From Thermodesulfobacteriota bacterium (GTDB lineage Bacteria > Desulfobacterota_D > UBA1144 > Nemesobacterales > Mycalebacteriaceae): a stretch of 64,000 bases of DNA. Positions 14,843-54,999 of the stretch are shown here, piece after piece. The notes below the pieces were generated by a model. The model worked only from the letters and a program-made list of their open reading frames with translations, ran no database searches and was not told the origin of the DNA. The position numbers were made by a program, and so were the translations under genes. The stretch spans positions 1,337,275 through 1,401,274 of the forward strand of contig OZ242184.1 in assembly GCA_965205855.1 (NCBI GenBank), read 5' to 3'. Positions within the stretch are counted from its first letter, which is position 1, and every line of letters begins with the position of its first letter.

Positions 14843-15793
14843 ATGATAACCTGTCTCGGAGGCGGAGTCGGAGCTGGAAAATTTCTCAAAGGTCTGTCTC
14901 TGCGGATGCGCAACCGCGACCCTTCGGAAAAGCTTTCCGTTATCGTCAACAGCGCGGACGACATAAAACTGTTCGGGCTTCACATATCCCCCGACATAGA
15001 CACGATAATTTACTGGCTTTGCGGAATAGTGGACAAAAAAAAAGGCTGGGGAATCAAGGACGACACATTCAACTTCATGGACGCAGTTTCCACCCTCGGA
15101 GGGGAGGACTGGTTCAGGATAGGCGACCGAGACCTCGCGACCCATGTTGCGAGAACCATGATGACAGCGCGCGGACTCACGCCCTCGGAGGCGGCGCGGG
15201 AGATTTCCCGCAAGCTCGGAGCCGCGGACAAAGCCGATATAATGCCGATGACCGACTGCGATGTGGAAACCTGGGTGCGCACCAGACAGGGGGAAATGCA
15301 TTTTCAGCAATACTATGTCCAAAAGCGCATGGAGCCTGAGGTTTATGAAATCAACTTCCGAGGAATGGAGTCCGCGACTCCGGCTCCGGGAGTGCTTGAG
15401 TCAATAGCGGAGGCGGACACAATAGTGCTGTGTCCGAGCAACCCGGTAATAAGCATCGGCCCTATCCTGGAGGTTCCCGGCTTAAGGGATGCTCTTGTCC
15501 AATCAAAGGGAACAGTCGCCGGAGTAAGCCCGCTCATAGGGGGAAAACCGCTGAAAGGACCCGCCGACCGCCTTATGAAAGCCCTCGGACTTGAGGTTTC
15601 CTCGTTTCAGGTAGCAAAGATGTATTCGGACTTCCTCAACCTCATGGTGATAGACAACAGCGACAGCGCCGAAGCGGCGCAAATAGAGTCTCTCGGAATT
15701 GAGACTCTTGTTACGAACACGTTGATTTCAAGCACGGAAAGGGCTGGCACGCTCGCGGACGAAGTGCTTGAAAAAGTTGATATTCTCCGTTAG
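14843..15793 (+). CDS. cofD: 2-phospho-L-lactate transferase (F420 biosynthesis)
   Basis: LGGGVGAGKF, GLHISPDIDT, WFRIGDRDLATH, PSNPVISIGPIL, KGPADRLM; start placed at MITCL. Confidence 0.93.
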   Translation: MITCLGGGVGAGKFLKGLSLRMRNRDPSEKLSVIVNSADDIKLFGLHISPDIDTIIYWLCGIVDKKKGWGIKDDTFNFMDAVSTLGGEDWFRIGDRDLATHVARTMMTARGLTPSEAAREISRKLGAADKADIMPMTDCDVETWVRTRQGEMHFQQYYVQKRMEPEVYEINFRGMESATPAPGVLESIAEADTIVLCPSNPVISIGPILEVPGLRDALVQSKGTVAGVSPLIGGKPLKGPADRLMKALGLEVSSFQVAKMYSDFLNLMVIDNSDSAEAAQIESLGIETLVTNTLISSTERAGTLADEVLEKVDILR

Positions 15794-41229: not shown

Positions 41230-42291
41230 TTAAGCGATTGTTATTTTATTTTCAAGATACACATCCTGAACCGCGTGAAGAAGAGCCACTCCCTCCTTCA
41301 TAGGTTTCTGGAACGCTTTTCTTCCCGTTATAAGGCCCATTCCGCCCGCTCTTTTGTTTATCACCGCGGTTCTGACCACCATTTGCAGGTCGTTCCCGCC
41401 CGATGTTGCGCCGCCGGAATTTATAAGCCCTATTCTTCCCATGTAGCAGTTCATAACCTGATAGCGCGCAAGGTCTATGGGGTTTTCCGATGTCAGCCGG
41501 GAATACACCCTCTGATGCGTTTTGCCGAAGCGCAGGGCGGTAAATCCGCCGTTGTTTTCGGGTTGTTTCTGTTTCACAATATCTGCTTGTATGGTCGCGG
41601 CGAGGTGGTTTGCCTGTCCGGTAACATCGGCGGAAACGTGGTAATCGGTTTTGCCCTGTTTGAAATGCGGGTTTCTCAGATACGCCCACAGGACGGTAAC
41701 AAGCCCGAGCTCGTGTGCGCGCGCGAAGGCTTGTGAAATCTCCTCAATCTGCCGCGAGCTTTCCTCCGAGCCGTAATACACGGTGGCACCGACCGCCACT
41801 GCGCCCATGTCAAACGCCTGCTCCACATCGGCAAAAAGCGTCTGGTCGTATTTTTCGGGATAGGTGAGAAGTTCGTTATGGTTGATCTTCACTATAAACG
41901 GGATTTTATGCGCGTATTTTCTTGACACCGCGCCGAGGACCCCGAGGGTTGAGGCAACCGCGTTGCATCCGCCTTCAATCGCGAGGCGCACTATGTTTTC
42001 GGGGTCAAAGTATTCGGGATTGGGCGCGAAAGACGCTCCGGCGGAATGTTCAACTCCCTGATCAACCGGCAGGATTGAAACATAACCCGTGCCGCCAAGC
42101 CGCCCTGTGTTGAGAATTTGCTGAAAGTTTCTCATAACCGCGGGCGACCTGTCTGTCAGGGAAAAAACCCTGTCCACATAATCGGGACCGGGCTTGTGGA
42201 GCATATCGCCTGAAACCACGCACTTGTGGTTGAGAAGCGCGTCCGCTTCGGCTGCGAGAAGTTGCTCTATGTTAACTTTTGACCGTGGCAT
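41230..42291 (-). CDS. fbaB: Class I fructose-bisphosphate aldolase (DhnA family)
   Basis: [42 protein letters not shown]. Confidence 0.95.
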
Positions 42292-42406
42292 TTGAGTGTA
42301 AATATGCACCCGTTTCTTTGCGAACTTGAAGGATAACCTAAACGGGGCTGGCAGTAAATATGGCAAGTTATTACACAATGCCGTATCATTTCCCTTCTTA
42401 TCCGCA

Positions 42407-42703
42407 ATGAGCCAAAACACCATTCAACGCGCCCGTTACCGCATTACCGGAAAAGTGCAGGGAGTCGGTTACAGATACTGGACTTGGGCAAAAGCCCGCG
42501 AACTCAAACTAAACGGCTGGGTGGAAAACCAGACGGACGGAAGCGTAACGGCTCTGCTGGTTGGCAAAGAAGAACGGATTGCGGAGATGGAAAAGGATTT
42601 GGGCGCGGGACCTCCGGCGTCAGAAGTACGAGAGGTTGAAAATCTGGAACTCACCGGAGAGGACAAAATGTTTGAGGCGGAGGGATTTGAAATTCGGAGG
42701 TGA
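42407..42703 (+). CDS. acyP: Acylphosphatase
   Basis: [21 protein letters not shown]. Confidence 0.93.
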
Positions 42704-42722
42704 TATATTAACGGGAACAATT

Positions 42723-45700
42723 ATGGGTTCGGTTAAAGCAAAGAAATCGGTTTTGATTGACAATCGCGGGGCGAAGATGGCTGACTACCTTGCGCGTCAT
42801 CTCGGCGGTGCTGAAATTTTCCGGCTTGTTTCCGCATATTTCTCCATATACGGCTTTGAAGCCCTGCGGGAGCAACTTTGCAAACCATCACTGAAAAACA
42901 CCAAATTTCTGTTTGGCGACCCCGGTTCGGTGGGTGAGGTAGTCAGCGGCGAAAAACAGCAACGCTCATTCAATCTCAAAGAAAACGGCTTATCTGTTAA
43001 ATACACTAAAGTATTGCAACAACGGCAACTTGCCGAGCAATGCGCGGAATGGATAAAACAAAACAACGTGGAAATCCGCACCATAACGCAAAGCAATTTT
43101 CTTCACGGCAAGATGTATCACACGACCAATCCGGACGGGAGCGGAGTTGCGACTGTTGGCAGTTCCAACTTCACCCGGCGCGGTCTGGGACTGTCGGAAA
43201 ATCCCAACCTTGAAATCAACCTCGCAACCGAAAATACGGAAACGCACGAAGAGTTAAAGAGCTGGTTTGATAAAATATGGAATGACAAGACCCTGACCGA
43301 AGATGCCAAACGGCAGGTTCTGGATGTGCTGGAAAATCTATACCGCGAAAACGCTCCGGAATTCGTCTATTACAAAACCCTTTACGAATTGTTCCGCGAC
43401 AAAATAGAAAAGCGCGCCGAGGAAGACAGTTTATTGGAAAACACTCACCTATACGACTCTGAAATCTGGAAAACCCTATATGAATTTCAAAAAGACGGAG
43501 CCAAAAGCACGATTGCCCGTTTGCAACGGCACAACGGTTGCATTCTGGCGGACAGTGTGGGCTTGGGAAAAACATACACCGCACTGGCAGTAATCAAATT
43601 TTTTGAATTAAGAAATGCGACGGTATTAGTCCTCTGTCCCAAGAAACTGGAAAACAACTGGCGGGTATATCAAGCCGTCAATAATCAAAGTGGCAACCCG
43701 TTTTTGCAAGACAAATTTTCCTACACCTTATTAACGCATACCGATCTGAGCCGTGATTCGGGAATGTCGGGCGGCACAGACCTCGCCAACTTTAAGTGGG
43801 GAAATTACGACCTGGTTGTCATTGATGAATCGCACAACTTCCGCAATAACACCAAAAGCCGCAAAGACCCGGACGGAAACATAATACGCATGAGCCGCTA
43901 TGAAAAACTGATTAAAGACATTATTCAAGACGGCGTAAAAACCAAAGTATTAATGTTATCGGCAACCCCGGTAAATACCTCGCTGCTTGATTTACGCAAT
44001 CAGATATATCTGATGACGAGAGGGCTCGATGACCATCTGCTTGACAGTTTAGGGGTCGGCAACATTGGCGCGGTAATAAAAGACGCGCAGAACAAATTCA
44101 AGCAATGGGAAGAGCGACAAGACCAAAGACTAAACAAGGAAAATCTGCTAAAGGAACTTGGCGGAGACTTCCTGCACTTATTAGATGGCGTTACCCTTGC
44201 CCGTTCGCGCAAACAGATACGCAAATTCTATAAGGGCTTTATTGAAGAAGAAGGCGACTTTCCCAAACGTAAAAAGCCGGACAACCGATACCCGCATACT
44301 GATACTGAGAAGCAACTGTCTTATGAAAATCTGCACTCCAATATCTCAGCATTAAAATTCCGATTCTATCAACCCTCTCTCTATGTCATCGGGCCGGAAG
44401 CGCAACAACGGCTGGACGCTGAAAAAGAGGAGCACAATTTCAACCAGAAAGACCGTGAAATATTTCTCGCAGCGATGATGCGGATCAATTTTCTCAAACG
44501 ACTGGAAAGCTCGGCGCATGCTTTCACTCTGACATTGGAGCGCACCGCCGGGAAAATTGATGTGTTGATCGATAAAATAAAAAAATATCAGCAAAAAAAT
44601 TCACCCGATAAACAAACAGTTGAATGTTTGCCGGACGATGAAGAAGACGATGAAGAATTTTTAGTCAACCGCAACGCCATACATCCCTACAAATTGAGCG
44701 AATTAAATGTGGAACTATGGAAACAGAACATACAAAGCGACCGCAGAGTATTACAGCAAATACTTGACAAAATACAGACCATCACTCCGCAACGTGATGG
44801 AAAATTACAACTAATCAAAAAAGAACTGGAGAAAAAAGCGGCTCAAAAGAACCGCAAACTGCTTATATTCACCGCCTTCAAAGACACTGCGGAATATCTT
44901 TATGAAAACCTTGCCGAAACGGGTGAAAAACTGGGTCTTAACCTTGCGCTTGTTTGCGGGGATTTAACCAGAACCGGATACGGTAAAAACACCTTTGGCG
45001 ATATTCTCTACAATTTCGCGCCGCAGACCCGGCCCGGAAGGTCGCCCAAGGAACAAATTGACATTTTAATTGCGACCGATTGCATTTCAGAGGGTCAGAA
45101 CCTGCAGGACTGCGACACCGTATTAAACTACGACATCCACTGGAATCCGGTGCGCCTGATACAGCGTTTCGGGCGCATAGACAGGATTGGTAGCAAAAAC
45201 CTTTCCGTGAATATGATTAACTTCTGGCCAACGAAGGACATGAATCTGTACCTGAAATTGGAAAACCGGGTCAGGGCTCGCATGGCTCTCGTGGACGCGA
45301 CCGCGACCGGAGATGACAACAGTCTTGATGAAGCCGCTTTTAAAGAGGCGGCAAAGACGGAATTAAACTTCCGCGACCGGCAGATAGAGCGCATACGGGA
45401 AGAAATTATAGATTTTGAAGAAGCGTCGGATTCCATCAGCATGAGCGATTTAACGTTGGACTATTTTATGACCCAGCTTTTGCGTTATCTGGAAGCGAAC
45501 AAAGACGCATTGGAAAAGGCGCCGCATGGAATTCACGCAGTCATCAAGTCGAATACGCAGGACTTATCTGCCAAAGAAGCAAAACCCGGCGCGATATTCT
45601 TTTTCCGTCAGAACCATGCCGCCGAAAACAACATAAATAACCCGACCCATCCGTTTTATTTTGTCTATGTGCAAGAAGACGAGGGAGTGCGTTACGGATA

Positions 45701-46010
45701 TATAAACGCGCATATAATTTTACAACGGTTTGAAAATCTCAGCCACGGAAAAACCAAGCCCGACAACGCGCTCTGCAACGCTTTTAACAGTCAGATCAAA
45801 GATAATTTGGAACACTACAATAAACTGATAGAACAAGCGGTTGACCATATCAAAAAAGCTTTTTCCGACACTGCCAACAAAAATCTTTCAAAAAGCCGGG
45901 ATACGGTATTGCCTACAAAATCCGAAAATCCCGACCTGAAAAATTTGGAATTGCTGACTTGGCTTGTGATAACGAAACCGGGTTTTAAGACAGATGCCGG
46001 AAATTCGTGA
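42723..46010 (+). CDS. PLD-nuclease domain fused to SNF2-type SF2 helicase
   Basis: FLHGKMY...GSSNFT (PLD), LADSVGLGKT, IDESHNFR, LSATP, SEGQNLQ, WNPVRLIQRFGRIDRIG. Confidence 0.9.
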   Translation: MGSVKAKKSVLIDNRGAKMADYLARHLGGAEIFRLVSAYFSIYGFEALREQLCKPSLKNTKFLFGDPGSVGEVVSGEKQQRSFNLKENGLSVKYTKVLQQRQLAEQCAEWIKQNNVEIRTITQSNFLHGKMYHTTNPDGSGVATVGSSNFTRRGLGLSENPNLEINLATENTETHEELKSWFDKIWNDKTLTEDAKRQVLDVLENLYRENAPEFVYYKTLYELFRDKIEKRAEEDSLLENTHLYDSEIWKTLYEFQKDGAKSTIARLQRHNGCILADSVGLGKTYTALAVIKFFELRNATVLVLCPKKLENNWRVYQAVNNQSGNPFLQDKFSYTLLTHTDLSRDSGMSGGTDLANFKWGNYDLVVIDESHNFRNNTKSRKDPDGNIIRMSRYEKLIKDIIQDGVKTKVLMLSATPVNTSLLDLRNQIYLMTRGLDDHLLDSLGVGNIGAVIKDAQNKFKQWEERQDQRLNKENLLKELGGDFLHLLDGVTLARSRKQIRKFYKGFIEEEGDFPKRKKPDNRYPHTDTEKQLSYENLHSNISALKFRFYQPSLYVIGPEAQQRLDAEKEEHNFNQKDREIFLAAMMRINFLKRLESSAHAFTLTLERTAGKIDVLIDKIKKYQQKNSPDKQTVECLPDDEEDDEEFLVNRNAIHPYKLSELNVELWKQNIQSDRRVLQQILDKIQTITPQRDGKLQLIKKELEKKAAQKNRKLLIFTAFKDTAEYLYENLAETGEKLGLNLALVCGDLTRTGYGKNTFGDILYNFAPQTRPGRSPKEQIDILIATDCISEGQNLQDCDTVLNYDIHWNPVRLIQRFGRIDRIGSKNLSVNMINFWPTKDMNLYLKLENRVRARMALVDATATGDDNSLDEAAFKEAAKTELNFRDRQIERIREEIIDFEEASDSISMSDLTLDYFMTQLLRYLEANKDALEKAPHGIHAVIKSNTQDLSAKEAKPGAIFFFRQNHAAENNINNPTHPFYFVYVQEDEGVRYGYINAHIILQRFENLSHGKTKPDNALCNAFNSQIKDNLEHYNKLIEQAVDHIKKAFSDTANKNLSKSRDTVLPTKSENPDLKNLELLTWLVITKPGFKTDAGNS

Positions 46011-49000
46011 AGAAATAAAAACCGCCCTTGAGCGGTTTGGCAATCACGGTCAAAATTTTGACGATGCGGTTATCGGGTTGCTGAAAACTCTCGGCTATGA
46101 AAGCGAACGCGCAAAATATTTTTCGGGAACACCGGAGGAATTTAACCGGCAATACCCGCCTGAGTCTTACAAAACGGACACCAAAAGCGGGAGACAATTC
46201 CTAAAAATCACAGAAAAAACGCATACCGTTATACAAATCACCAATGAAGAAATCAGCAAATCCCCCAGCCTGTTTTCCTCTCAAGAAAAAGATTTTCAAT
46301 CAACAGACATTAAAAGCTTTCTATTCATTGCCATAGAATTAAAAAAAGGCAACTACCCGCGTGGCGTGTATGCCGACCTGACCCGTGAAATAAACAAGCA
46401 TTTTGCTATGCCGACTGTGGTTGTTTTTCACAACCCCGAAGGAAAACAGCTGACCATCGCGTTTATAAACCGCCGTGTCAGTAAAACGGATACAGGCCGC
46501 GATGTACTGGAAAAAGTCCACTTGATTAAAGACATCAATACGAAAAAACCGCACCGGGCGCATTTGGATATTCTTGCGCAACTTTCACTCCCTGAATGCC
46601 TTAAATGGATAGCACAAGAAAAACAAACCCAAGACTTTGACGGACTACTCAAAGCATGGTTAGCCACACTGGACATTGAGGAACTGAACAAAAAGTTTTA
46701 CAAAGAGTTATTAAAATGGTTTGAATGGGCAAAGGAAACCGCCAAATTCCCGACCGGAGACTCCAAGCAACCGATTAAATGGGAAGACCAGATCATCCGC
46801 CTTATAACCCGCTTGCTTTTTGTCTGGTTCATCAAGGAAAAAGGGCTTGTAGCCGAAGATTTATTTCATAGAGCGCAAATAGAAAATCTGTTAAAAGACA
46901 AATGCAAGCCGGACGGCGGAGATTATTATCGTGCCGTTTTGCAAAACCTGTTTTTTGCTACTCTCAACACCGAAATATACAAACGGGAATTCAGCCGTAA
47001 AACAAATGCCGACCACCGCAACTTTAACCTCTATCGCTATGAAAACCTGCTCAAAGACAAATCCAAACTTTTTAAATTGATGCGACAAACCCCGTTTATC
47101 AATGGGGGTTTGTTTGACTGTTTGGATAGTTTTGAAGCAACCGGAAACGACGGCTATCGCATTGATTGTTTTACGGACAACACCAAACACGGCAGAGAAC
47201 TTTCCGTTCCCAACAAACTGTTTTTTGATACGCCCAAAGGTTTTTTCACCATATTACAACAATACAAATTCACAGTAGAGGAAAACACCCCGATTGAGCA
47301 GGAAGTCGCATTAGACCCCGAACTGTTGGGGAAAGTGTTTGAAAATCTGCTCGCGGAATACAACCCCGAAACGCAGAAAACCGCGCGCAAACAAAGCGGC
47401 AGTTACTACACTCCGCGCGAAATTGTGGATTATATGGTCAACGAGGCGCTCATCGCGCGATTGGCGGATATGGCGGAACCTTCCATAGAAGACCCCGAGT
47501 TTTGGCGCGAACGTTTGAGTTATCTTTTAGACTATGCCGATTCTTTCAATGATGCAGAACAACTTTTTGATGAAACCGAAAAAAAACGCATTGTAAAAGC
47601 AATCTCGCAAATCAAAGTATTAGACCCTGCCGTTGGTTCCGGAGCGTTCCCTATGGGGATATTACACAAACTGACACTTGCGCTAAAGAGAATTGACCCT
47701 GAAAACAAACACTGGCAAAAACTGCAAAAAGAACTTGCCACAGGAAAAGTGAAAACGGCATTTGGAACCAAAAATCAAAGAGCGCGCGACAAAGAACTAA
47801 AAGACATCAGCCACACTTTTGAAACCTACAGAGACTCCGATTTCGGGCGCAAACTTTATCTGATACAAAACAGTATCTACGGCGTGGATATTCAACCAGT
47901 CGCCTGTCAAATTTCCAAACTGCGCTTTTTTATCTCCCTTGCTATTGAACAAGAACCTAATAAAAAACAGAAGGATAATTTCGGTATCAAGCCCCTACCC
48001 AATCTGGAGACCCGTTTTGTCACCGCTAACACACTTATCGTATTTTCTAAAAAAGATAAGCAAATGTCGCTCACAGATGAAACTGTACAAGAACTGGAGA
48101 GAAAACTACATGAAAACCGAGAAAAGCACTTCAATGCCAAAACCCGCAAATCAAAATTGAGATGTATTGAGGAAGACAAAAAATTACGAAATCAACTGGT
48201 AAAACAACTAAAAAAGACCTTCGGTTTTGACAATCAAGAAGCCGACAGAATTGCCCAATGGAACCCCTACAACCAAAACGGAGTCGCCGACTGGTTTGAT
48301 GCCGAATATATGTTTGGCGTTAAAAATGGCTTTGATATTGTTATTGGTAACCCGCCGTATATTCAATTGCAAAAAGACGGCGGGCGCTTGGGAAGCCTTT
48401 ATCAGAATTGCAATTTCAAGACCTTTGCCAGATCGGGAGATATCTACCAACTGTTCTATGAACGGGGTATGCAATTGCTAACCGATGCTCAAGGTATACT
48501 GGCGTTTATCACCTCCAACAGTTGGATGCGTGCCCAATACGGTAAAAAGCTGCGTGGCTTTTTAAGAGCGGAACACAGCCCCCTGCGCCTGATAGACATG
48601 GGCAAAAATGCCTTTGAGGCGATTGTGGATACCAATATATTACTGGCCAGCACAGGCAGGGCGGAACAAGAATTCAAGGCGGTTGACATGGATTCTCTTG
48701 CCGAAAAACAGTTTCCGCCTGCCGAGCACTACTGGTCGGAAATCGAGCCCGCTGATGATGTGGCCTGGAGCATATTGTCGCCGCTTGAGAAAAAGATAAA
48801 GTCCAGGATTGAACAGTTGGGCACCCCATTAAAAGACTGGGATATTCGTATTTATCGTGGAGTATTAACAGGCTTGAACGACGCCTTTATTATTGATACC
48901 GCTAAAAGGGATGAGTTGCTTGCCGCCGACCCAAAATCCGCCGAGATTATTAAACCCATTTTACGCGGCAGGGATGTAGGGCGATATGGGTATAAGTGGG

Positions 49001-49608
49001 CGGGGAAGTGGGTTATTGCTACTTTTCCGGCATTAAAAATTGATATTGATCATTATCTAGCCATTAAGAACCACTTATTAAGTTTTGGGAAAGACCGATT
49101 GGAGCAAGCAGGAAAGGCATTATCCGATGGCACAAAATCAAGAAAGAAAACAGGCAACAAATGGTTTGAAACCCAGGACCAAATCGGTTACCACACAGAA
49201 TTTGAAAAAGAAAAATTGATTTGGATGCACATGTCAGGTGATTCAAGGTTCTCATATAGTAACGGAGAACTATATTGTAATAATAAATGTTTCATCGTCA
49301 CTGGAGGTCAATTGAAATATCTTGGAGCCCTGCTGAACTCTAAATTAGTTTCATGGCTTATGAAGGTTGTAGGGGTACCAACTGGGATGGGGCTAATTCA
49401 ATGGGACAAATTTACTGTCGAAACAATACCGTGCGTCCGATTGTCTCAACCTGAGCAACAGCCCTTTATGGATATAGTCGATCAAATCCTCACCGCCAAA
49501 CAACAAGGCAAAGACACCACCGCGCTAGAGGCGGAAATTGATAAGAGGGTCTATCAGCTCTACAATCTCATTTCTGGTGAAATCAAAATCATTGAGGCTA
49601 AAAAATGA
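45994..49608 (+). CDS. Eco57I/type IIG-like N6-adenine DNA methyltransferase with TaqI_C-like TRD
   Basis: PFINGGLF, GSYYTPREIV, LDPAVGSGAF (motif I), IGNPPY (motif IV), C-terminal EIDKRVYQLYNL..EIKIIE. Confidence 0.92.
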   Translation: MPEIREEIKTALERFGNHGQNFDDAVIGLLKTLGYESERAKYFSGTPEEFNRQYPPESYKTDTKSGRQFLKITEKTHTVIQITNEEISKSPSLFSSQEKDFQSTDIKSFLFIAIELKKGNYPRGVYADLTREINKHFAMPTVVVFHNPEGKQLTIAFINRRVSKTDTGRDVLEKVHLIKDINTKKPHRAHLDILAQLSLPECLKWIAQEKQTQDFDGLLKAWLATLDIEELNKKFYKELLKWFEWAKETAKFPTGDSKQPIKWEDQIIRLITRLLFVWFIKEKGLVAEDLFHRAQIENLLKDKCKPDGGDYYRAVLQNLFFATLNTEIYKREFSRKTNADHRNFNLYRYENLLKDKSKLFKLMRQTPFINGGLFDCLDSFEATGNDGYRIDCFTDNTKHGRELSVPNKLFFDTPKGFFTILQQYKFTVEENTPIEQEVALDPELLGKVFENLLAEYNPETQKTARKQSGSYYTPREIVDYMVNEALIARLADMAEPSIEDPEFWRERLSYLLDYADSFNDAEQLFDETEKKRIVKAISQIKVLDPAVGSGAFPMGILHKLTLALKRIDPENKHWQKLQKELATGKVKTAFGTKNQRARDKELKDISHTFETYRDSDFGRKLYLIQNSIYGVDIQPVACQISKLRFFISLAIEQEPNKKQKDNFGIKPLPNLETRFVTANTLIVFSKKDKQMSLTDETVQELERKLHENREKHFNAKTRKSKLRCIEEDKKLRNQLVKQLKKTFGFDNQEADRIAQWNPYNQNGVADWFDAEYMFGVKNGFDIVIGNPPYIQLQKDGGRLGSLYQNCNFKTFARSGDIYQLFYERGMQLLTDAQGILAFITSNSWMRAQYGKKLRGFLRAEHSPLRLIDMGKNAFEAIVDTNILLASTGRAEQEFKAVDMDSLAEKQFPPAEHYWSEIEPADDVAWSILSPLEKKIKSRIEQLGTPLKDWDIRIYRGVLTGLNDAFIIDTAKRDELLAADPKSAEIIKPILRGRDVGRYGYKWAGKWVIATFPALKIDIDHYLAIKNHLLSFGKDRLEQAGKALSDGTKSRKKTGNKWFETQDQIGYHTEFEKEKLIWMHMSGDSRFSYSNGELYCNNKCFIVTGGQLKYLGALLNSKLVSWLMKVVGVPTGMGLIQWDKFTVETIPCVRLSQPEQQPFMDIVDQILTAKQQGKDTTALEAEIDKRVYQLYNLISGEIKIIEAKK

Positions 49609-51290
49609 TTACCAAAATCAGTATTAAACGCTTTAAGCAAATCTCTGATGAAACCATCGATCTTGAACCGGTGGTGGTATTGGTCGGACCTAATAATAGC
49701 GGCAAGACCAGTCTATTGCAGGCATTTTCGCTATTAGCAATAGCAATCAAGGTATGGGCTGAAAAACGCCTTGATAATCCAACCAAACAAAATCAACGCA
49801 CGGGTATTGCGATTAATTTAAACGATATAAATATACCAGCCGCTGAGTTTAAAGAGCTATGGCAAAATACTAAAACCAGAGAAGGCAATACCACTAAAAA
49901 AGGTACAACGCCCATCAAGATAGAAATCCATGCCAAAGGAGAGAGCTATGACCAAGAGCAAAAAACAAAGTCATGGGAAGTAGGTTTTGAATTTAGTTAT
50001 CAGCGAGATAGTGTTATTTACACCAAACTCATTGATGGCTATCAGTTTGAAACTATTTTAACGAAAGAAAGTATTGGTTTTTTGCCGTCTATATCTGGTC
50101 TTACTCTTAAAGAAGACAAATTAGAGATGGGTTCTATTCTTCGCCGTATTAGTGAGGGGCAGACTGCTACGGTGCTGCGGAATATTTGTTACCATTTATA
50201 TGAAAACAACCAACAAGGCTGGAATGGTCTCGTCAAAAGTATTAAGGATTTATTTGCCATTGAGTTAAACACGCCCAGGTATTATCCGAATAGTGGCTTG
50301 TTGGAACTCAACTATAATGAAACCACTAATAAAAAAATGTCGCTTTCCGCACTCGGTAGTGGTGCAAAACAGGCCATTTTACTATTTGCCTATCTAGGTG
50401 CGTTTAAAAATACTATTAGTTTACTTGATGAGCCTGATGCCCACCTTGAAGTCATTAAACAAGCTAATGTTTATTATAGTTTGAGTGATTTTGCTAAACG
50501 GAATAATAGCCAGCTAATTATTGCCAGCCATTCAGAAAGCGTGCTTAATGCCGCTAAAGATGACTTAATAATTTCATCTATGTCGGGTAAGTTTGAAAAA
50601 GAATCCGCCAAGGATATTAAAGCTTTTTTAAAAGATTATCCTTATGAGCAATACTTGTTAGCCAAACAAAAGCCTTTTATCTTATATTATGAAGGAACTA
50701 CTGATTTGGCTTTTATACGAGCATTTTGCAAAAAATTAGGCAAACAGGAATACCTTGAGCAATTAAATACAGCTATCTATCCTTTTTCGCTGGGTGGTAA
50801 TGATATGGGTAAAGCAAAAAAACATTTTTCTGCCCTAAAGGAATACCTGCCCGAACTAAGGGGTTTTGCCTTATTTGATAATCTGGACAAGGATATTCAA
50901 GACATTCCAGAAGGTCTAAAAATGCATCAATGGCAACGTAAGGAAATAGAAAACTATATTCCCGTACCCAGCACACTGATGAACTATATCGACGCACAAT
51001 CTGGGGATTTGTTTTCTCAAACTTACCCATCAAGATTAGAGCATATTCTAAAAGAGAATATACCTCCCGCCGCCTATGATAATTTAGAAAATGATTTTTG
51101 GATGGAGACCAAAATAGGCGATTTCCTCACCAGAATTTTTGAGCAATTTTTAGATGAAACCAGTCAACCCAAAGGCACAATGGATAAATCAAAATTTTAT
51201 CTATTAGTGAATCATATTGACGATGATCAATTAGATGGTGAGTTAAAAAAAACGCTTGATAGCATATTTACTCATTTAGCAAAACCCTGA
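49605..51290 (+). CDS. ABC-type ATPase with C-terminal TOPRIM-like domain (OLD/AAA_21-like)
   Basis: GPNNSGKT, LGSGAKQ, LLDEPDAHL, ASHS; YYEGTTD, FDNLD, EIENY; AT-rich; ATGA overlap with the MTase stop. Confidence 0.82.
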   Translation: MITKISIKRFKQISDETIDLEPVVVLVGPNNSGKTSLLQAFSLLAIAIKVWAEKRLDNPTKQNQRTGIAINLNDINIPAAEFKELWQNTKTREGNTTKKGTTPIKIEIHAKGESYDQEQKTKSWEVGFEFSYQRDSVIYTKLIDGYQFETILTKESIGFLPSISGLTLKEDKLEMGSILRRISEGQTATVLRNICYHLYENNQQGWNGLVKSIKDLFAIELNTPRYYPNSGLLELNYNETTNKKMSLSALGSGAKQAILLFAYLGAFKNTISLLDEPDAHLEVIKQANVYYSLSDFAKRNNSQLIIASHSESVLNAAKDDLIISSMSGKFEKESAKDIKAFLKDYPYEQYLLAKQKPFILYYEGTTDLAFIRAFCKKLGKQEYLEQLNTAIYPFSLGGNDMGKAKKHFSALKEYLPELRGFALFDNLDKDIQDIPEGLKMHQWQRKEIENYIPVPSTLMNYIDAQSGDLFSQTYPSRLEHILKENIPPAAYDNLENDFWMETKIGDFLTRIFEQFLDETSQPKGTMDKSKFYLLVNHIDDDQLDGELKKTLDSIFTHLAKP

Positions 51291-51354
51291 AAATATCAGC
51301 TAACTGGTCTATAAACACTACAACCTCACCGCTGATGAAATCAAAATCATTGAA
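51289..51354 (+). repeat. Degenerate copy 2 of the MTase 3' tail
   Basis: Translates ENIS*LVYKHYNLTADEIKIIE versus MTase EIDKRVYQLYNLISGEIKIIE. Confidence 0.8.
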
Positions 51355-51360
51355 ATCAAG

Positions 51361-51469
51361 GTCACTCCTGCACACAAAAAACAACGTCACTCCCGAAAAA
51401 CACCGCCACTTCCAAGAAAAACCGTCATTCCCGAAAAAAACCGTCATTCCCGCGCAGGCGGGAATCCAG
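51361..51469 (+). repeat. Left REP array: degenerate half-sites plus full palindrome CGTCATTCCCGCGCAGGCGGGAATCCAG (51442-51469)
   Basis: Half-sites at 51361, 51385, 51404 and 51423; full site has an ATTCCC-N8-GGGAAT core. Confidence 0.9.
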
Positions 51470-51480
51470 CGAATAACACC

Positions 51481-51774
51481 ATGAGCCACAAACAACCTGC
51501 TGTTTATATTTTGGCAAGCCAACCTAATGGTACGTTATACACTGGCGTTACTTCTGATTTAATCAAACGTGTCTGGGAACATAAAAATCATTTGGTCAAA
51601 GGATTCAGTCAAAAATATAACGTAGACCTTTTGGTCTATTTCGAATTGCATGCAGATATGTATGTTGCAATTACGCGTGAAAAGCAAATCAAGAAATGGA
51701 AGCGGGCATGGAAGCTGAGGTTGATTGAAGATAAGAATCCACATTGGAGGGATTTATATAAAGATTTGGTTTGA
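51481..51774 (+). CDS. Stand-alone GIY-YIG nuclease, copy A
   Basis: AVYILAS..NGTLYTGVT..L.KRV.EHK, AITREKQIKKWKRAWK, NP.W.DLY. Confidence 0.92.
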   Translation: MSHKQPAVYILASQPNGTLYTGVTSDLIKRVWEHKNHLVKGFSQKYNVDLLVYFELHADMYVAITREKQIKKWKRAWKLRLIEDKNPHWRDLYKDLV

Positions 51775-52030
51775 CTGGATTCCCGCCTGCGCGGGAATGA
51801 CGTTCCAGGAGGTCTTGGCGCCCACTGAGACGGCCTGGATTCCCGCCTGCGCGGGAATGACGAATAGGAAAAGCGGGAATGACTAATAGAGAAGAAGCGG
51901 GAATGACATTCCAGGAGGTCTTGGCGCCCACTGAGGCGGCCTGGATTCCCGCCTGCGCGGGAATGACTAATAGAAGAAGCGGGAATGACTAATAGGAGAA
52001 GGGGAATGACGGACGGGGAGCGGAGATGAC
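51775..52030 (-). repeat. Right REP array A: inverted full palindromes, half-sites and 32-bp spacers
   Basis: CTGGATTCCCGCCTGCGCGGGAATGAC at 51775, 51835 and 51941; GCGGGAATGAC-type half-sites between and after. Confidence 0.92.
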
Positions 52031-52043
52031 AGACAGAGGGCAG

Positions 52044-52203
52044 AAACAACAGCCATTTATAGAAACAGTCGTTTCTAGAAGCAGCCAACAAAATCATCAA
52101 AGTCAAACAACAAGGCAAAGACACCACCGCGCTGGAAACCGAAATTGATAAGAGGGTCTATCAGCTCTACAATCTCATTTCTGGTGAAATTGGAATCATT
52201 GAA
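52044..52203 (+). repeat. Copy 3 of the MTase 3' tail
   Basis: 52105-52133 identical to 49498-49526 and 52141-52190 identical to 49534-49583; upstream KQQPFIETV resembles EQQPFMDIV. Confidence 0.92.
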
Positions 52204-52262
52204 ATCAAGGTCACTCCTGCACACAGAAAACAACGTCATTCCCGAAAAACACCGCCACTTCC

Positions 52263-52812
52263 AAAAAAACCGTCATTCCCGCGCAGGCGGGAATCCAGCG
52301 AATAACACCATGAGCTAAAAACAACCTGCTGTTTATATTTTGGCAAACCAACCTAATGGTACGTTATACACTAAAAAAACCGTCATTCCCGCGCAGGCGG
52401 GAATCCAGCGAATAACACCATGAGCCGCAAACAACCTGCTGTTTATATTTTGGCAAGCCAACCTAATGGTACGTTATGCACTAAAAAAACCGTCATTCCC
52501 GCGCAGGCGGGAATCCAGCGAATAACACCATGAGCCACAAACAACCTGCTGTTTATATTTTGGCAAGCCAACCTAATGGTACGTTATGCACTAAAAAAAC
52601 CGTCATTCCCGCGCAGGCGGGAATCCAGCGAATAACACCATGAGCCGCAAACAACCTGCTGTTTATATTTTGGCAAGTCAACCTAATGGTACGTTATGCA
52701 CTAAAAAAACCGTCATTCCCGCGCAGGCGGGAATCCAGCGAATAACACCATGAGCCACAAACAACCTGCTGTTTATATTTTGGCAAGTCAACCTAATGGT
52801 ACGTTATACACT
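52263..52812 (+). repeat. Five tandem 110-bp units (REP plus first 21 codons of the GIY-YIG gene)
   Basis: CGTC starts at 52271, 52381, 52491, 52601 and 52711; unit-specific SNPs; the fifth unit continues into the intact gene. Confidence 0.95.
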
Positions 52813-53043
52813 GGCGTTACTTCTGATTTAATCAAACGTGTCTGGGAACATAAAAATCATTTGGTCAAAGGATTTAGTCAAAAATATAACGTAGACCTTT
52901 TGGTCTATTTCGAATTGCACGCAGATATGTATGTTGCAATTACGCGTGAAAAGCAAATCAAGAAATGGAAGCGGGCATGGAAGCTGAGGTTGATTGAAGA
53001 TAAGAATCCACATTGGAGGGATTTATATAAAGATTTGGTTTGA
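52750..53043 (+). CDS. Stand-alone GIY-YIG nuclease, copy B (protein identical to copy A)
   Basis: Same 97-aa translation, a few synonymous differences, offset 1269 bp. Confidence 0.92.
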   Translation: MSHKQPAVYILASQPNGTLYTGVTSDLIKRVWEHKNHLVKGFSQKYNVDLLVYFELHADMYVAITREKQIKKWKRAWKLRLIEDKNPHWRDLYKDLV

Positions 53044-53501
53044 CTGGATTCCCGCCTGCGCGGGAATGACGTTCCAGGAGGTCTTGGCGCCCACTGAGAC
53101 GGCCTGGATTCCCGCCTGCGCGGGAATGACGAATAGGAAAAGCGGGAATGACTAATAGAGAAGAAGCGGGAATGACATTCCAGGAGGTCTTGGCGCCCAC
53201 TGAGGCGGCCTGGATTCCCGCCTGCGCGGGAATGACTAATAGAAGAAGCGGGAATGACGTTCCAGGAGGTCTTGGCGCCCACTGAGGCGGCCTGGGTTCC
53301 CGCCTGCGCGGGAATGACGAATAGGAGAAGCGGGAATGACGAATAGAGAAGAAGCGGGAATGACGTTCCAGGGGGTCTTGACGCCCACTGAGGCGGCCTG
53401 GATTCCCGCCTGCGCGGGAATGACGAATAGAAGAAACGGGAATGACGAATAGGAGAAGCGGGAATGACGTTCCGGGAGGTCTTGGCGCCCACCGAGGCGG
53501 C
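53044..53501 (-). repeat. Right REP array B (expanded)
   Basis: Full inverted palindromes at 53044, 53104, 53210, 53292 and 53398, half-sites, five 32-bp spacers. Confidence 0.92.
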
Positions 53502-53783
53502 TTGAAGATTGACGGCGGACTGCGGTTCAACAGCGACCCGGACGGCAGTAACGGGGGAAGAAACAACGAAGCGGGCTCTTTGCCAAATCATGTTGACGCG
53601 GCTTCGGTTGGACTGGGTTACGACTTCCCGTTTTACTCAACCTATCTCGGCGCGTCTTACCTGCGCCAAAATGACGCTGATAACTATGAGCGCAATTTCT
53701 TCGGCGTTGTGGGAAAAGTAAAAACCGCAGTGAACACGTTCAGCATCGGCATTCGCTTTGACTTCGAAGTTCCGATTCTTTAA
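53470..53783 (+). pseudogene. 3' remnant of an outer-membrane beta-barrel protein gene
   Basis: GGLKIDGGLRF...AASVGLGYDF...YLGASYLRQ...FSIGIRFDF amphipathic strands; no signal peptide or credible start. Confidence 0.55.
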
Positions 53784-53796
53784 TCCGCGGAAAAAC

Positions 53797-54999
53797 TTAA
53801 CAATCTTTTTCATCCAGAATGGAAATCCCCGGCAAATCCGCGCCGCTCAGGAATTTCAACGCCGCGCCGCCGCCCGTGGAAACGTGCTTCAACTCCGAAC
53901 TCAAAACCTCGGCTTTCCTTATCGCCGCTACGCTCTCGCCCCCGCCCGCGACCGTTACTGCACCGCGCCATGTTTCAAGGGCAATCGCCCTCGCCACTTG
54001 AGTCGTGCCGTTGGAAAACCCGTCCAACTCAAAAACACCCATCGGACCGTTCCAGAAAATCGTCTTTTTGCCCTTCATGCGAGATGTGAAATTAACAATC
54101 GTCTTGGGTCCTATGTCAAAACCCTTCAGATGCGGAGGTATATCCCCCTCAAGAAGAATCGGGTTTTTTGTTTTCTCCATATCCTCGGCGACAACATGGT
54201 CACACGGAAGAACTATCTTGTCCCCGTATTCCTTAATCGCACCTGCCGCCCAGTCAACCATCTCCTCCTCAACAATGGATTGCCCCACGCTGTCTCCGCG
54301 CGCTTTTAAAAATGTGTACGCAACCCCGCCGCCCACGATTATCTCATCCGCCTTCTCAAGCAGATTCTCCAAAGCGTTTATCTTGTCCTTGATTTTCGCC
54401 CCTCCGACCATGACCAGATAAGGCCTTTCGGGTTTGTCAACAAGGGTTTTGAAAAAACCTATCTCTGTGTTTACCACAAAACCCGCGATTTTTTTCTCAA
54501 AGTAATCGCCCACGCCGTAGGTTGACGAATGCATACGGTGCGAAGTTCCAAACGCATCGTTGACATAAATATCGGCAAATTCCGAAAGCCGCCTGCAAAA
54601 TTCGGGGTCGCAATTCCTCTCTTCGGGAAAAAACCTTAAATTCTCAAGAAGAAGAACCTCACCCTCGCGTAGCTTCTCAACCTCGCTGTCAACACCCTCA
54701 CCGACAACGCCGCCCGGAAATTTCACGGGCTTGCCAAGTAACTCCCCAAGCCTCTCCGCGATGGGGGCAAGCGAAAGCGATTCCACAAAATTCCCTCTCG
54801 GACGCCCGAGATGAGATGCCACAACAACCTTCGCCCCGCGCTCGGCAAGATAGGCAATCGTGGTAAAAGACCTTCTTATTCTGTAATCTTCGGTGATTTT
54901 TCCGCCCTTGAGCGGAACATTGAAATCCACTCTGACAAAAAATCTGCCGCCCTTTATCTCGGAATCGGACAGGTCTGAAACGACCATTTTTGATTTCAA
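53797..54999 (-). CDS. pgk: Phosphoglycerate kinase
   Basis: RVDFNVP, SHLGRP, LLENLRF, WNGPMGVFE, STGGGA. Confidence 0.97.
   Translation of the reverse strand: MKSKMVVSDLSDSEIKGGRFFVRVDFNVPLKGGKITEDYRIRRSFTTIAYLAERGAKVVVASHLGRPRGNFVESLSLAPIAERLGELLGKPVKFPGGVVGEGVDSEVEKLREGEVLLLENLRFFPEERNCDPEFCRRLSEFADIYVNDAFGTSHRMHSSTYGVGDYFEKKIAGFVVNTEIGFFKTLVDKPERPYLVMVGGAKIKDKINALENLLEKADEIIVGGGVAYTFLKARGDSVGQSIVEEEMVDWAAGAIKEYGDKIVLPCDHVVAEDMEKTKNPILLEGDIPPHLKGFDIGPKTIVNFTSRMKGKKTIFWNGPMGVFELDGFSNGTTQVARAIALETWRGAVTVAGGGESVAAIRKAEVLSSELKHVSTGGGAALKFLSGADLPGISILDEKDC

What the first reader, a model, noticed from the sequence alone, without database searches (positions are those of the whole stretch)
49455..52305. 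MTase 3' tail repeated three times as boundaries of a cargo cassette array
Seen: the last codons of the Eco57I-like MTase recur after the ATPase gene (51289-51354, diverged, LVYKHYNLTADEIKIIE). They recur again after GIY-YIG block A (52044-52203, with 29-bp and 50-bp blocks identical to the gene). The layout is MTase-tail / ATPase-TOPRIM / tail / GIY-YIG A / tail / GIY-YIG B, with no integrase in the window. The first cargo gene is coupled to the MTase by an ATGA overlap. Inference: the conserved tail downstream of the variable TRD acts as a homologous-recombination landing pad. Cargo would be gained, lost or duplicated in an integron-like way and expressed from the RM operon.
Basis: partly seen in the sequence, partly recalled or inferred. 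Interest (0 to 1): 0.82.

Follow-up and report, generated by a model that had tools for sequence, protein, structure and literature searches.

The report
Repeated methylase gene-ends bracket swapped defence genes
The end of a DNA-methylase gene is repeated three times in a foreign island, and comparison with related loci suggests that this conserved gene-end is where bacteria recombine to swap the enzyme's recognition module and neighbouring anti-phage genes.

Summary
The MTase 3' tail (T1, 49426-49608) recurs at 51304-51354 (T2) and 52044-52203 (T3). The ATPase gene overlaps the MTase stop by ATGA. No integrase was found in the window.

The 11.4-kb island (42424-53796) is absent from 5 of 5 congeners. 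It is a mosaic shared with very distant sponge-symbiont genomes.
- 953 nt of the recognition module are 100% identical to a Halieaceae MAG, and the identity ends inside T1.
- That MAG has the same left and right flanks around a different cargo (TcmP + DUF5131).
- A Pseudohongiella MAG carries the same ATPase cassette with the same tail remnants on both sides.

Extra direct tails occur in 9 of 61 related genome loci and 14 of 80 metagenome loci. All run to the tail's end, and many sit directly on the next defence gene.

Best reading: recombination in the conserved tail swaps recognition modules and tail-plus-cargo units and pushes older units downstream. It is not integron-like. The two GIY-YIG blocks are not captured cassettes. 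They are one composite (tail + flank + a 360-bp inverted-repeat element) duplicated in tandem.

The scan found the same phenomenon earlier on other DNA (e1-2413686, e1-1148408). Verdict: a new variant of known kinds, of moderate interest.

The parts
42424..53796 (.). Foreign island, inserted between a DeoC-family aldolase gene (41230-42423, -) and pgk (53797-54999, -)
   Evidence: GC is 0.37-0.46 here against about 0.50 around it. The two flanking genes lie 38-72 nt apart in G003 and G001; G002 and G005 carry other inserts there. The MTase was not found in 5 of 5 same-genus genomes.
42561..46010 (+). PLD (HKD) nuclease + SNF2 helicase, 1149 aa
   Evidence: Pfam PLDc_2, SNF2-rel_dom and Helicase_C. 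PADLOC 'HKD+Snf2' C3a139 E 2.1e-117.
45994..49608 (+). Eco57I/TaqI_C-type N6-adenine MTase, 1204 aa
   Evidence: Pfam Eco57I E 2.2e-34 and TaqI_C E 8.8e-10. PADLOC REase_MTase_IIG E 1.6e-144.
48574..49526 (+). 953-nt tract 100% identical to Halieaceae MAG locus L028. It covers the recognition module and the first part of the tail, with graded divergence on both sides.
   Evidence: Mismatch map. The wider stretch 48268-49608 is 97.3% identical. pgk of the two genomes is only 38% identical in protein.
49426..49608 (+). Tail T1, a chimera. 49426-49526 matches L028 exactly; 49580-49608 goes with the ATPase cassette of L030. It contains GAGG 8 nt before the ATG, and the ATGA overlap.
49605..51290 (+). 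Cargo 1: ABC/OLD-type ATPase with a probable TOPRIM-like C-terminal domain, 561 aa (AriA/AriAB-like)
   Evidence: Pfam AAA_15 E 8.2e-19. PADLOC AriA E 7.4e-21 and AriAB E 5.6e-18, matched by 71 of 71 aligned relatives. AlphaFold model pLDDT 94. Top Foldseek hits are OLD nuclease 6p74 and GajA. Residues 1-353 match SMC/PtuA heads at Z about 20.
51304..51354 (+). Tail T2: the last 17 codons with no stop. It starts 13 nt after the ATPase stop.
51355..51441 (+). Flank shared by T2, T3 and the second tail of L028 (degenerate 19-nt repeats)
   Evidence: (D6).
51442..51802 (+). GIY-YIG mini-element A: 28-bp inverted repeats at 51442-51469 and 51775-51802 around the 97-aa ORF 51481-51774
   Evidence: I1, 100% complementary. 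Pfam GIY-YIG E 7.2e-14. The element has the same ends at other loci.
51803..52043 (+). REP array A (106-nt and 22-nt units with the hairpin ATTCCCGC-CTGC-GCGGGAAT)
   Evidence: All 14 REP copies of the genome lie in this locus.
52044..52203 (+). Tail T3: about 52 codons, frameshifted, with no stop before the flank
   Evidence: (D5).
52263..52702 (+). Four tandem 110-nt units, each the left inverted repeat plus the first 24 codons of the GIY-YIG gene
   Evidence: TRF: period 110, 5.0 copies, 97% matches..
52711..53071 (+). GIY-YIG mini-element B (ORF 52750-53043)
53072..53500 (+). REP array B
53442..53783 (+). 113-aa ORF at the right end of the island, with no family match. By eye it looks like the C-terminal piece of a beta-barrel protein.
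   Evidence: No Pfam hit at E <= 1. Host homology resumes at about 53801.

Best explanation
The last ~60 codons of this MTase family are conserved, and they act as the shared homology segment of a modular defence locus.

Recombination inside the tail has two effects:
1. It swaps the recognition module lying between the catalytic core and the tail.
2. It moves units made of the tail end, a start codon that overlaps or closely follows the tail's stop, and an accessory defence gene.

Each gain leaves a 5'-truncated tail copy downstream, so older units are displaced distally and arrays build up.

The window shows at least three events:
1. A very recent exchange of the recognition module, with a crossover in T1.
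2. Arrival of an ATPase cassette that carries its own tail remnants on both sides.
3. A tandem duplication of the tail + flank + GIY-YIG composite.

Shown: the repeats, the mosaic breakpoints, the variable cargo, and the recurrence in other genomes. Inferred: that the joints were made by RecA-type homologous recombination, that the tail actively promotes cargo gain, and that the cargo is co-translated with the MTase.
For: Breakpoints in the window:
- Window 48574-49526 is 100% identical to L028. Mismatches cluster at 48313-48573 and 49527-49608, so the right end of the tract lies inside T1.
- The two genomes are very distant: pgk is 38% identical in protein.

Same flanks, different cargo:
- In L028 the MTase tail overlaps (ATGA) a 367-aa TcmP-like gene followed by DUF5131. 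Then come a second tail (15095-15190), the same flank and a GIY-YIG 99% identical in protein.

Same cargo, different place:
- The L030 ATPase cassette is 82% identical over window 49580-51327. That span includes a decayed tail end upstream and the same junction of ATPase stop, 13 nt and tail start downstream.
- The Zeta-toxin-like cargo of L030 and L054 is 88% identical in nt. The homology begins inside a tail remnant with the same overlap junction.

Recurrence:
- Two or more direct tails occur in 9 of 61 genome loci and 14 of 80 metagenome loci, about 10 of them non-redundant.
- Every extra tail ends at HMM position 58-61 of 61 and starts anywhere from 1 to 46.
- Of 11 direct downstream MTase fragments in 50 loci, 9 map to the last 6% of the protein.
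- Orphan tails in L021 and L030 (two of its tails) keep the ATGA overlap with the next ORF. In L054 and L078 the next ORF starts 11 and 22 nt after the tail.

Cargo types include FRG-TPR, TIR-TPR, SIR2, PLD, AAA_15 and Zeta-toxin-like proteins.

Depth in public runs: the recognition module stands at about 4200 and the ATPase at 906, against about 394 and 344 for the flanking host contigs in run X1. The L028-type letters occur in the same runs, so the modules are shared among co-resident genomes.
Against: - No recombination event was observed directly. The laid contigs showed no T1-T2 or T1-T3 deletion joint, but they are too short to tell.
- Homology boundaries partly fall in tails by construction, because the tails are the repeated part.
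- Extra tails mostly resemble the local MTase tail. The local tail ranks first or second in 21 of 28 cases, at 84-100% nt identity. In-situ target duplication fits this equally well.
- Only 9 of 42 scoreable loci have an overlapping downstream ORF.
- The GIY-YIG blocks of this window are explained by tandem duplication without any cassette capture.
- The promoter-like site in the tail is not above chance: 18 sites found against 18.4 expected.
Confidence: 0.6

Rival explanations
1. Passive scars of 'insertion with long target duplication'. Each accessory gene was inserted once at the 3' end of the MTase by a non-homologous process that duplicates 30-200 bp of the target. This is the process described for RM genes by Furuta, Abe and Kobayashi 2010 (PMC2853133). 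The tails do not promote later exchange.
For: - Direct repeats longer than 30 bp flank cargo that has no mobility gene.
- Extra tails are usually closest to the local tail.
- L026 has a 59-nt stretch that is 100% identical between its tails.
- PMC2853133 (passages read) reports such insertions beside RM genes in several phyla.
Against: - It does not explain the chimeric T1 or the 953-nt identical tract that ends in the tail.
- It does not explain the same flanks around different cargo in L028.
- It does not explain tail remnants that travel with the ATPase and Zeta-like cargo between genomes.
- Some extra tails match foreign tails best (L150, L101, L047).
Confidence: 0.22
2. Relics of serial replacement plus local duplication. 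T2 is the leftover end of an earlier MTase overwritten by incoming DNA, and T3 with GIY-YIG B is a REP-mediated tandem duplication. There is no cassette dynamics in this genome.
For: - GIY-YIG blocks A and B are 98% identical over 300 nt and 93% over 214 nt, at a fixed spacing of 1269 nt.
- Larger MTase remnants exist in L025 and L078.
- The island sits in a slot that is variable among congeners.
Against: - Remnants are almost always the last 17-60 codons, not random pieces: 9 of 11.
- The tail part of T3 follows T1 (3 mismatches in 49 nt) while its flank follows T2. That requires exchange at the tail.
Confidence: 0.13
3. Assembly artefact or chimeric genome bin. The tail copies, or the Halieaceae-like tract, were joined wrongly at shared repeats.
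For: - The recognition module, tails, ATPase and GIY-YIG/REP segments occur in several co-resident genomes at higher depth.
- Short-read contigs break at 48288 and resume at 53472.
Against: - The same tail-cargo-tail-flank-GIY-YIG layout stands in independent assemblies (L028, L030).
- Identity to L028 stops before its cargo and leads into an ATPase not found in that genome.
- Window-type letters at 48357-48573 are present in the runs beside the L028-type letters.
- A 68.7-kb contig carries the host flank uninterrupted into the MTase gene as far as 48288.
Confidence: 0.05

Closest known systems
Insertion with long target duplication beside RM genes (Nobusato et al. 2000, recalled; Furuta, Abe and Kobayashi 2010, PMC2853133, passages read)
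   Same: A gene block without mobility genes is flanked by direct repeats of more than 30 bp that are copies of one target sequence. It is linked to RM loci. The same paper also reports allelic diversity of Type IIG recognition domains.
   Different: Here the inserted genes are accessory defence genes, not R and M genes. The repeat is always the conserved coding end of the MTase. Several units stack into arrays, and the repeats carry mosaic breakpoints shared between distant genomes.
Orphan toxin/immunity cassettes behind rhs and cdiA genes (Koskiniemi et al. 2014, PMC3967940, search listing only; the rest recalled)
   Same: A main gene is followed by displaced modules. Each module is preceded by a fragment of the conserved part of the main gene, which offers homology for recombination.
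   Different: There the variable part is the fused C-terminal tip of the same protein plus its immunity gene. Here the cargo is a separate gene joined by a stop/start overlap, and the conserved piece is the very end of the gene.
Recognition-domain swapping in Type I, III and IIG RM systems by recombination in conserved flanks
   Same: The 953-nt identical tract lies between the catalytic core and the tail, which is what such an exchange leaves.
   Different: The exchange here is between genomes whose pgk is only 38% identical. The same conserved flank also brackets non-RM cargo.
Integron gene-cassette arrays
   Same: An ordered array of promoterless-looking genes sits behind a fixed entry point.
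   Different: No integrase was found. There is no attC-type site, the repeat is coding sequence of variable length, and new units appear to enter next to the MTase by homology.
Earlier notes of this scan on other genomes: e1-2413686 and e1-1148408
   Same: Leftover MTase gene-ends bracket defence cassettes.
   Different: These are AI notes and not independent evidence. This window adds the exact-identity tract, the comparison with the same flanks around different cargo, and tail remnants shared with the cargo.

Membership tests
Integron | IntI-type tyrosine recombinase next to the array | tested here: not met
   No integrase or recombinase family was found in 43 window ORFs of 110 aa or more (Pfam E <= 1e-8) or in the four island proteins.
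Integron | attC-type imperfect hairpin sites of defined structure at cassette ends | tested here: not met
   The boundaries are in-frame copies of MTase codons that start at variable HMM positions (1-46). Folding of the tails was not tested.
Insertion with long target duplication (PMC2853133) | Insert flanked by direct repeats of more than 30 bp, with no mobility gene | tested here: met
   T1 and T2 share 48 nt at 83% around the ATPase gene. No mobility genes were found.
Insertion with long target duplication (PMC2853133) | The repeat is single-copy at an empty site in a related genome | tested here: inconclusive
   In L030 an MTase tail runs directly into the flank and GIY-YIG element with no cargo. 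However, no near-identical empty allele of this locus was found.
Insertion with long target duplication (PMC2853133) | The inserted segment contains R and M genes (a criterion of that paper) | tested here: not met
   The insert is an ATPase gene.
Eco57I/TaqI_C (Type IIG-like, PglX-like) adenine MTase | Eco57I methylase domain with the NPPY motif, plus a TaqI_C specificity domain | tested here: met
   Pfam Eco57I 119.5 bits (cut-off 25.3) and TaqI_C 39.3 bits (cut-off 26.5). GNPPY is visible in the translation.
BREX PglX (NCBIfam) | Score above the curated cut-off | tested here: not met
   NF033452 scores 103 bits against a cut-off of 500.
OLD-family / PARIS (AriA-AriB) ATPase-nuclease | N-terminal ABC/SMC-type ATPase | tested here: met
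   Pfam AAA_15 68.9 bits (cut-off 32.1). VIA Z 20.9, rmsd 3.6, 278 residues aligned to a retron Eco7 complex chain (9vhe_C), and Z 20.5 to Septu PtuA (8eea_B).
OLD-family / PARIS (AriA-AriB) ATPase-nuclease | C-terminal TOPRIM (DUF4435-like) nuclease domain | tested here: inconclusive
   - Pfam OLD-like_TOPRIM scores E 0.18, 12.8 bits, below the cut-off of 23.2.
- The PADLOC AriAB match reaches residue 458.
- The best Foldseek hits are OLD 6p74 and GajA, with 639-676 aligned columns but rmsd about 17.
- The VIA rows cover only residues 1-353.
- E363, D367, D425, E447 and E449 are conserved in 71 relatives.
- The domain was not folded on its own.
GIY-YIG nuclease | GIY-YIG catalytic domain | tested here: met
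   Pfam PF01541 scores 52.3 bits against a cut-off of 22.6.

The most novel reading that the evidence does not exclude
The MTase tail is a portable adaptor: conserved codons that carry a ribosome-binding GAGG and a stop/start overlap. It would support an integrase-free, RecA-driven cassette system. Through it, unrelated members of one microbial community (here sponge symbionts of different phyla) would trade both methylation specificity and accessory anti-phage genes. Each cassette would keep a tail copy as its entry ticket.
Probability: 0.3. Interest if true: 0.75.

Novelty: new variant of a known kind. Interest (0 to 1): 0.55.

Why it matters
If the tail really drives exchange, it gives a simple rule for how RM-type systems collect and shuffle partner defence genes without any mobile-element machinery. 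An example here is an OLD/PARIS-like ATPase translationally coupled to the MTase. The rule could be searched for in any genome.

The tail would also be a practical marker for finding unannotated defence genes: whatever sits between or just behind tail copies is a candidate.

The exact 953-nt identity between genomes whose pgk is 38% identical documents very recent gene flow inside a host-associated community.

If the tails are only scars, the locus is still an unusually legible record of RM turnover, but it is ordinary.

Tried and rejected
- Deletion alleles or circles: I laid Logan contigs of four runs on 48000-54000. No T1-T2 or T1-T3 joint was listed. The joints at 51353->52256 and 51353->52106 have sides under 30 nt, and the contigs are short, so this says nothing either way. 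Raw long reads were not available.
- GIY-YIG homing into the tail: rejected. In six other copies of the element whose flanks I read in G042 and G043, the upstream sequence is unrelated and not tail-like.
- REP as a native genome repeat of a donor: all 14 copies in the own genome lie in this locus. G041 and G043 hold only 2 matches each. The REP therefore travels with the GIY-YIG element.
- Tail census in the order of G041: only 5 of 301 genomes matched, so it was uninformative.
- Promoter in the tail: TTGATA-17-TACAAT lies at 49538-49566 and again in T3, but the scan found 18 sites against 18.4 expected.
- MTase-GIY-YIG fusion: the T2 frame reads through into GIY-YIG A (156-aa open frame), but T3 does not. 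I treat this as coincidence.
- Literature: searches found no paper on MTase-tail-bracketed cargo arrays. That covers only the held library and those terms.
- Fold of the ATPase C-terminal domain alone: not done.

Full report
**The observation**

The window encodes a 1149-aa PLD + SNF2 helicase (42561-46010), a 1204-aa Eco57I/TaqI_C MTase (45994-49608) and a 561-aa ATPase (49605-51290). The ATPase start overlaps the MTase stop as ATGA.
- A whole-genome search with the MTase end found exactly three places: the gene itself, 52091-52202 (90% over 112 nt, E 2.6e-38) and 51306-51353 (83% over 48 nt, E 7.5e-8).
- T3 (52044-52203) corresponds to about 52 codons with one frameshift. It has exact blocks of 30 and 50 nt shared with T1.
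- T2 (51304-51354) is the last 17 codons.
- In both T2 and T3 the stop codon is replaced by a shared flank that leads into a GIY-YIG unit.
- No integrase or transposase family was found in 43 further window ORFs of 110 aa or more.

**The setting**

The block 42424-53796 has low GC. It lies between a DeoC-type aldolase gene and pgk.
- These two genes are 38 and 72 nt apart in congeners G003 and G001. They are separated by other inserts of about 1 kb in G002 and 3.5 kb in G005.
- The MTase was not found in 5 of 5 same-genus genomes.
- The REP hairpin ATTCCCGCCTGCGCGGGAAT occurs 14 times in the 1.40-Mb genome, all within this block.
The block is therefore a foreign island in a variable slot.

**Relatives and mosaic structure**

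A scan of one genome per species returned 53 loci. By their record titles, many are sponge-symbiont MAGs, and they come from many phyla. Three gammaproteobacterial loci are informative.

L028 (Halieaceae MAG):
- Window 48268-49608 is 97.3% identical to it, and 48574-49526 is identical at all 953 positions.
- Ten mismatches lie in 48313-48573 and thirteen in 49527-49608.
- pgk of the two genomes is 38% identical in protein. The tract is therefore a very recent transfer whose right end lies inside T1.
- Behind the L028 tail, again with an ATGA overlap, sit a TcmP-like gene and a DUF5131 gene instead of the ATPase. Then come a second tail (15095-15190), the same flank, and a GIY-YIG 99% identical in protein.
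- Window homology resumes at 51305, in T2. The flanks are the same and the cargo differs.

L030 (Pseudohongiella MAG):
- It holds the ATPase gene (80% protein, 82% nt) about 8 kb further down its array.
- The homology runs over window 49580-51327. It covers a decayed tail end before the ATG, and then the same sequence of ATPase stop, 13 nt and first ~23 nt of T2. After that, housekeeping DNA follows.

T1 of the window is thus a chimera. Its first part matches L028 exactly, and its last 29 nt go with the ATPase cassette.

**Arrays elsewhere**

I built an HMM from 14 tails and ran it over 61 loci: the window, seven loci from genomes of the same order, and the 53 loci above.
- Two or more direct tails were found in 9 loci (WIN, L021, L025, L026, L028, L030, L047, L054, L078).
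- An inverted recognition-module-plus-tail copy was found in 6 loci.
- L030 has six tails. Two of them overlap the next ORF by ATGA: a Zeta-toxin-like gene and a 188-aa ORF. A third precedes an AAA_15 ATPase gene by 72 nt.
- In L021 an intact 67-codon orphan tail overlaps a TIR-TPR gene, while the MTase's own tail overlaps an FRG-TPR gene.
- The Zeta-like cargo of L030 and L054 is 88% identical in nt. The homology starts inside a tail remnant with the same overlap junction.
- An independent metagenome scan gave 80 loci, of which 14 (about 10 non-redundant) have two or three direct tails. The genes between them were read by eye only and were not searched against any family library.
- Every extra tail reaches HMM position 58-61 of 61, while the starts range from 1 to 46.
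- I searched each of 50 full MTases against its own locus. Of 11 direct downstream fragments, 9 fell in the last 6% of the protein.
- An overlapping downstream ORF is present at 9 of 42 scoreable MTase ends.
- Cargo families include FRG-TPR, TIR-TPR, SIR2, PLD, AAA_15, Zeta_toxin, DUF3644, DprA-like and GNAT.

**The GIY-YIG blocks**

The GIY-YIG ORF lies between perfect 28-bp inverted repeats.
- This ~360-bp unit recurs at other places in G042 and G043. In the six copies whose flanks I read, the upstream sequence is unrelated and not tail-like.
- The composite of tail + flank + element is shared by the window (twice), L028, L030 and one further site, L088.
- Blocks A and B of the window are 98% identical over 300 nt at a fixed 1269-nt spacing. 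They are closer to each other than to L028 (90-91%).
- The blocks are therefore a tandem duplication, not two captures.
- The tail part of T3 follows T1 (3 mismatches in 49 nt) while its flank follows T2. This again places an exchange at the end of the tail.

**The cargo gene**

The ATPase matches AAA_15 and the PADLOC models AriA and AriAB, as do all 71 aligned relatives.
- The model is confident, with pLDDT 94.
- Residues 1-353 match SMC, Rad50 and PtuA heads at Z about 20.
- The best Foldseek hits are the ATPase-TOPRIM proteins OLD (6p74) and GajA.
- The TOPRIM assignment of the C-terminal domain stays weak: Pfam E 0.18.

**Reads**

Only short Logan contigs were available.
- A 68.7-kb contig carrying the host flank runs uninterrupted to 48288 inside the MTase gene, and a host contig resumes at 53472.
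- In run X1 the depth is about 394 and 344 on these two contigs, about 4200 on the recognition module and 906 on the ATPase.
- The L028-type letters at 48357-48573 occur beside the window's own letters.
- The modules are therefore shared by several co-resident genomes. The long-range order of the repeats cannot be checked with these data.

**Interpretation**

The best reading (0.6) is that the conserved tail is the homology segment where recognition modules and tail-plus-cargo units are exchanged, and older units are pushed downstream.

A Campbell-type or double crossover between a resident tail and a tail-flanked cassette predicts three features that are all seen:
1. A full first tail coupled to the new gene.
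2. A second tail truncated at its 5' end but complete at its 3' end.
3. A cargo-to-tail junction that is inherited with the cassette.

The main rival (0.22) is insertion with long target duplication, as described beside RM genes (PMC2853133, passages read). It fits the finding that the local tail is the best or second-best match for 21 of 28 extra tails. It does not explain the shared breakpoints.

The system is not an integron: there is no recombinase, no hairpin site, and the repeat length is variable.

The closest functional analogy is the orphan cassette array behind rhs and cdiA genes (PMC3967940, listing only; otherwise recalled).

The scan reached similar conclusions on other genomes (e1-2413686, e1-1148408). 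Those notes are not independent evidence. My literature searches found no paper describing MTase-tail cassette arrays.

Noticed in passing
window 51442-51802 and 52711-53071; L082-L087: The 97-aa GIY-YIG gene is a ~360-bp unit between perfect 28-bp inverted repeats, and REP arrays follow it in the window. It occurs at several places in two gammaproteobacterial MAGs but only in this island in the window's genome. The layout recalls a REPtron (recalled) with a GIY-YIG nuclease in place of the usual transposase.
   Followed up: partly
window 52263-52702; L030 13024-13133 and 20972-21070; L088 1999-2108: The 110-nt piece (left inverted repeat plus the first 24 codons of the GIY-YIG gene, always ending at the same base) is repeated four times in tandem here. 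It also occurs alone in other genomes. It therefore behaves as a unit of its own.
   Followed up: partly
window 51304-51774: The T2 reading frame stays open through the flank and REP into GIY-YIG A, giving a 156-aa open frame. T3 does not do this, so it is probably chance.
   Followed up: partly
L034, L036, L048, L050, L056, L061 (just downstream of the MTase stop): An inverted spare copy of the last ~250 codons (recognition module plus tail) lies tail-to-tail with the MTase gene in 6 of 61 loci. It looks like an invertible specificity switch. An earlier scan note (e1-4383862) says this kind is published.
   Followed up: no
L033, L041, L058, L064, L076 (upstream of the MTase): A diverged copy of the first ~260 MTase residues (38-54% identity) lies directly upstream of the full gene.
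   Followed up: no
window 8158-10146: A 662-aa ORF with a Schlafen group 3 helicase domain (Pfam E 1.7e-75) sits in a second low-GC patch (0.42-0.44). It may be another acquired defence gene.
   Followed up: no
L090 (G005) and L091 (G002), same aldolase-pgk slot: Congeners carry other inserts at the same spot. G005 has a 395-aa ORF and a 351-aa ORF with a ParA-like P-loop start (read by eye, not searched). The slot is a hotspot for variable genes.
   Followed up: partly
L167 (2994-nt metagenome contig): The same tail sequence stands at both contig ends, around an 820-aa ORF whose start looks TIR-like (by eye). This is either a circle of cargo plus one tail, or an assembly-graph cycle caused by near-identical tails.
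   Followed up: no
L047, L066, L068, L073, L079: One Caldilineaceae MAG holds at least five loci of this MTase family. The orphan tail in L047 matches the tail of paralog L073 best (97% over 74 nt).
   Followed up: no
window 49538-49566 and 52145-52173: The tail codons spell TTGATA-17-TACAAT (10 of 12), among the three best promoter-like matches in the island. The scan as a whole is not above chance.
   Followed up: partly
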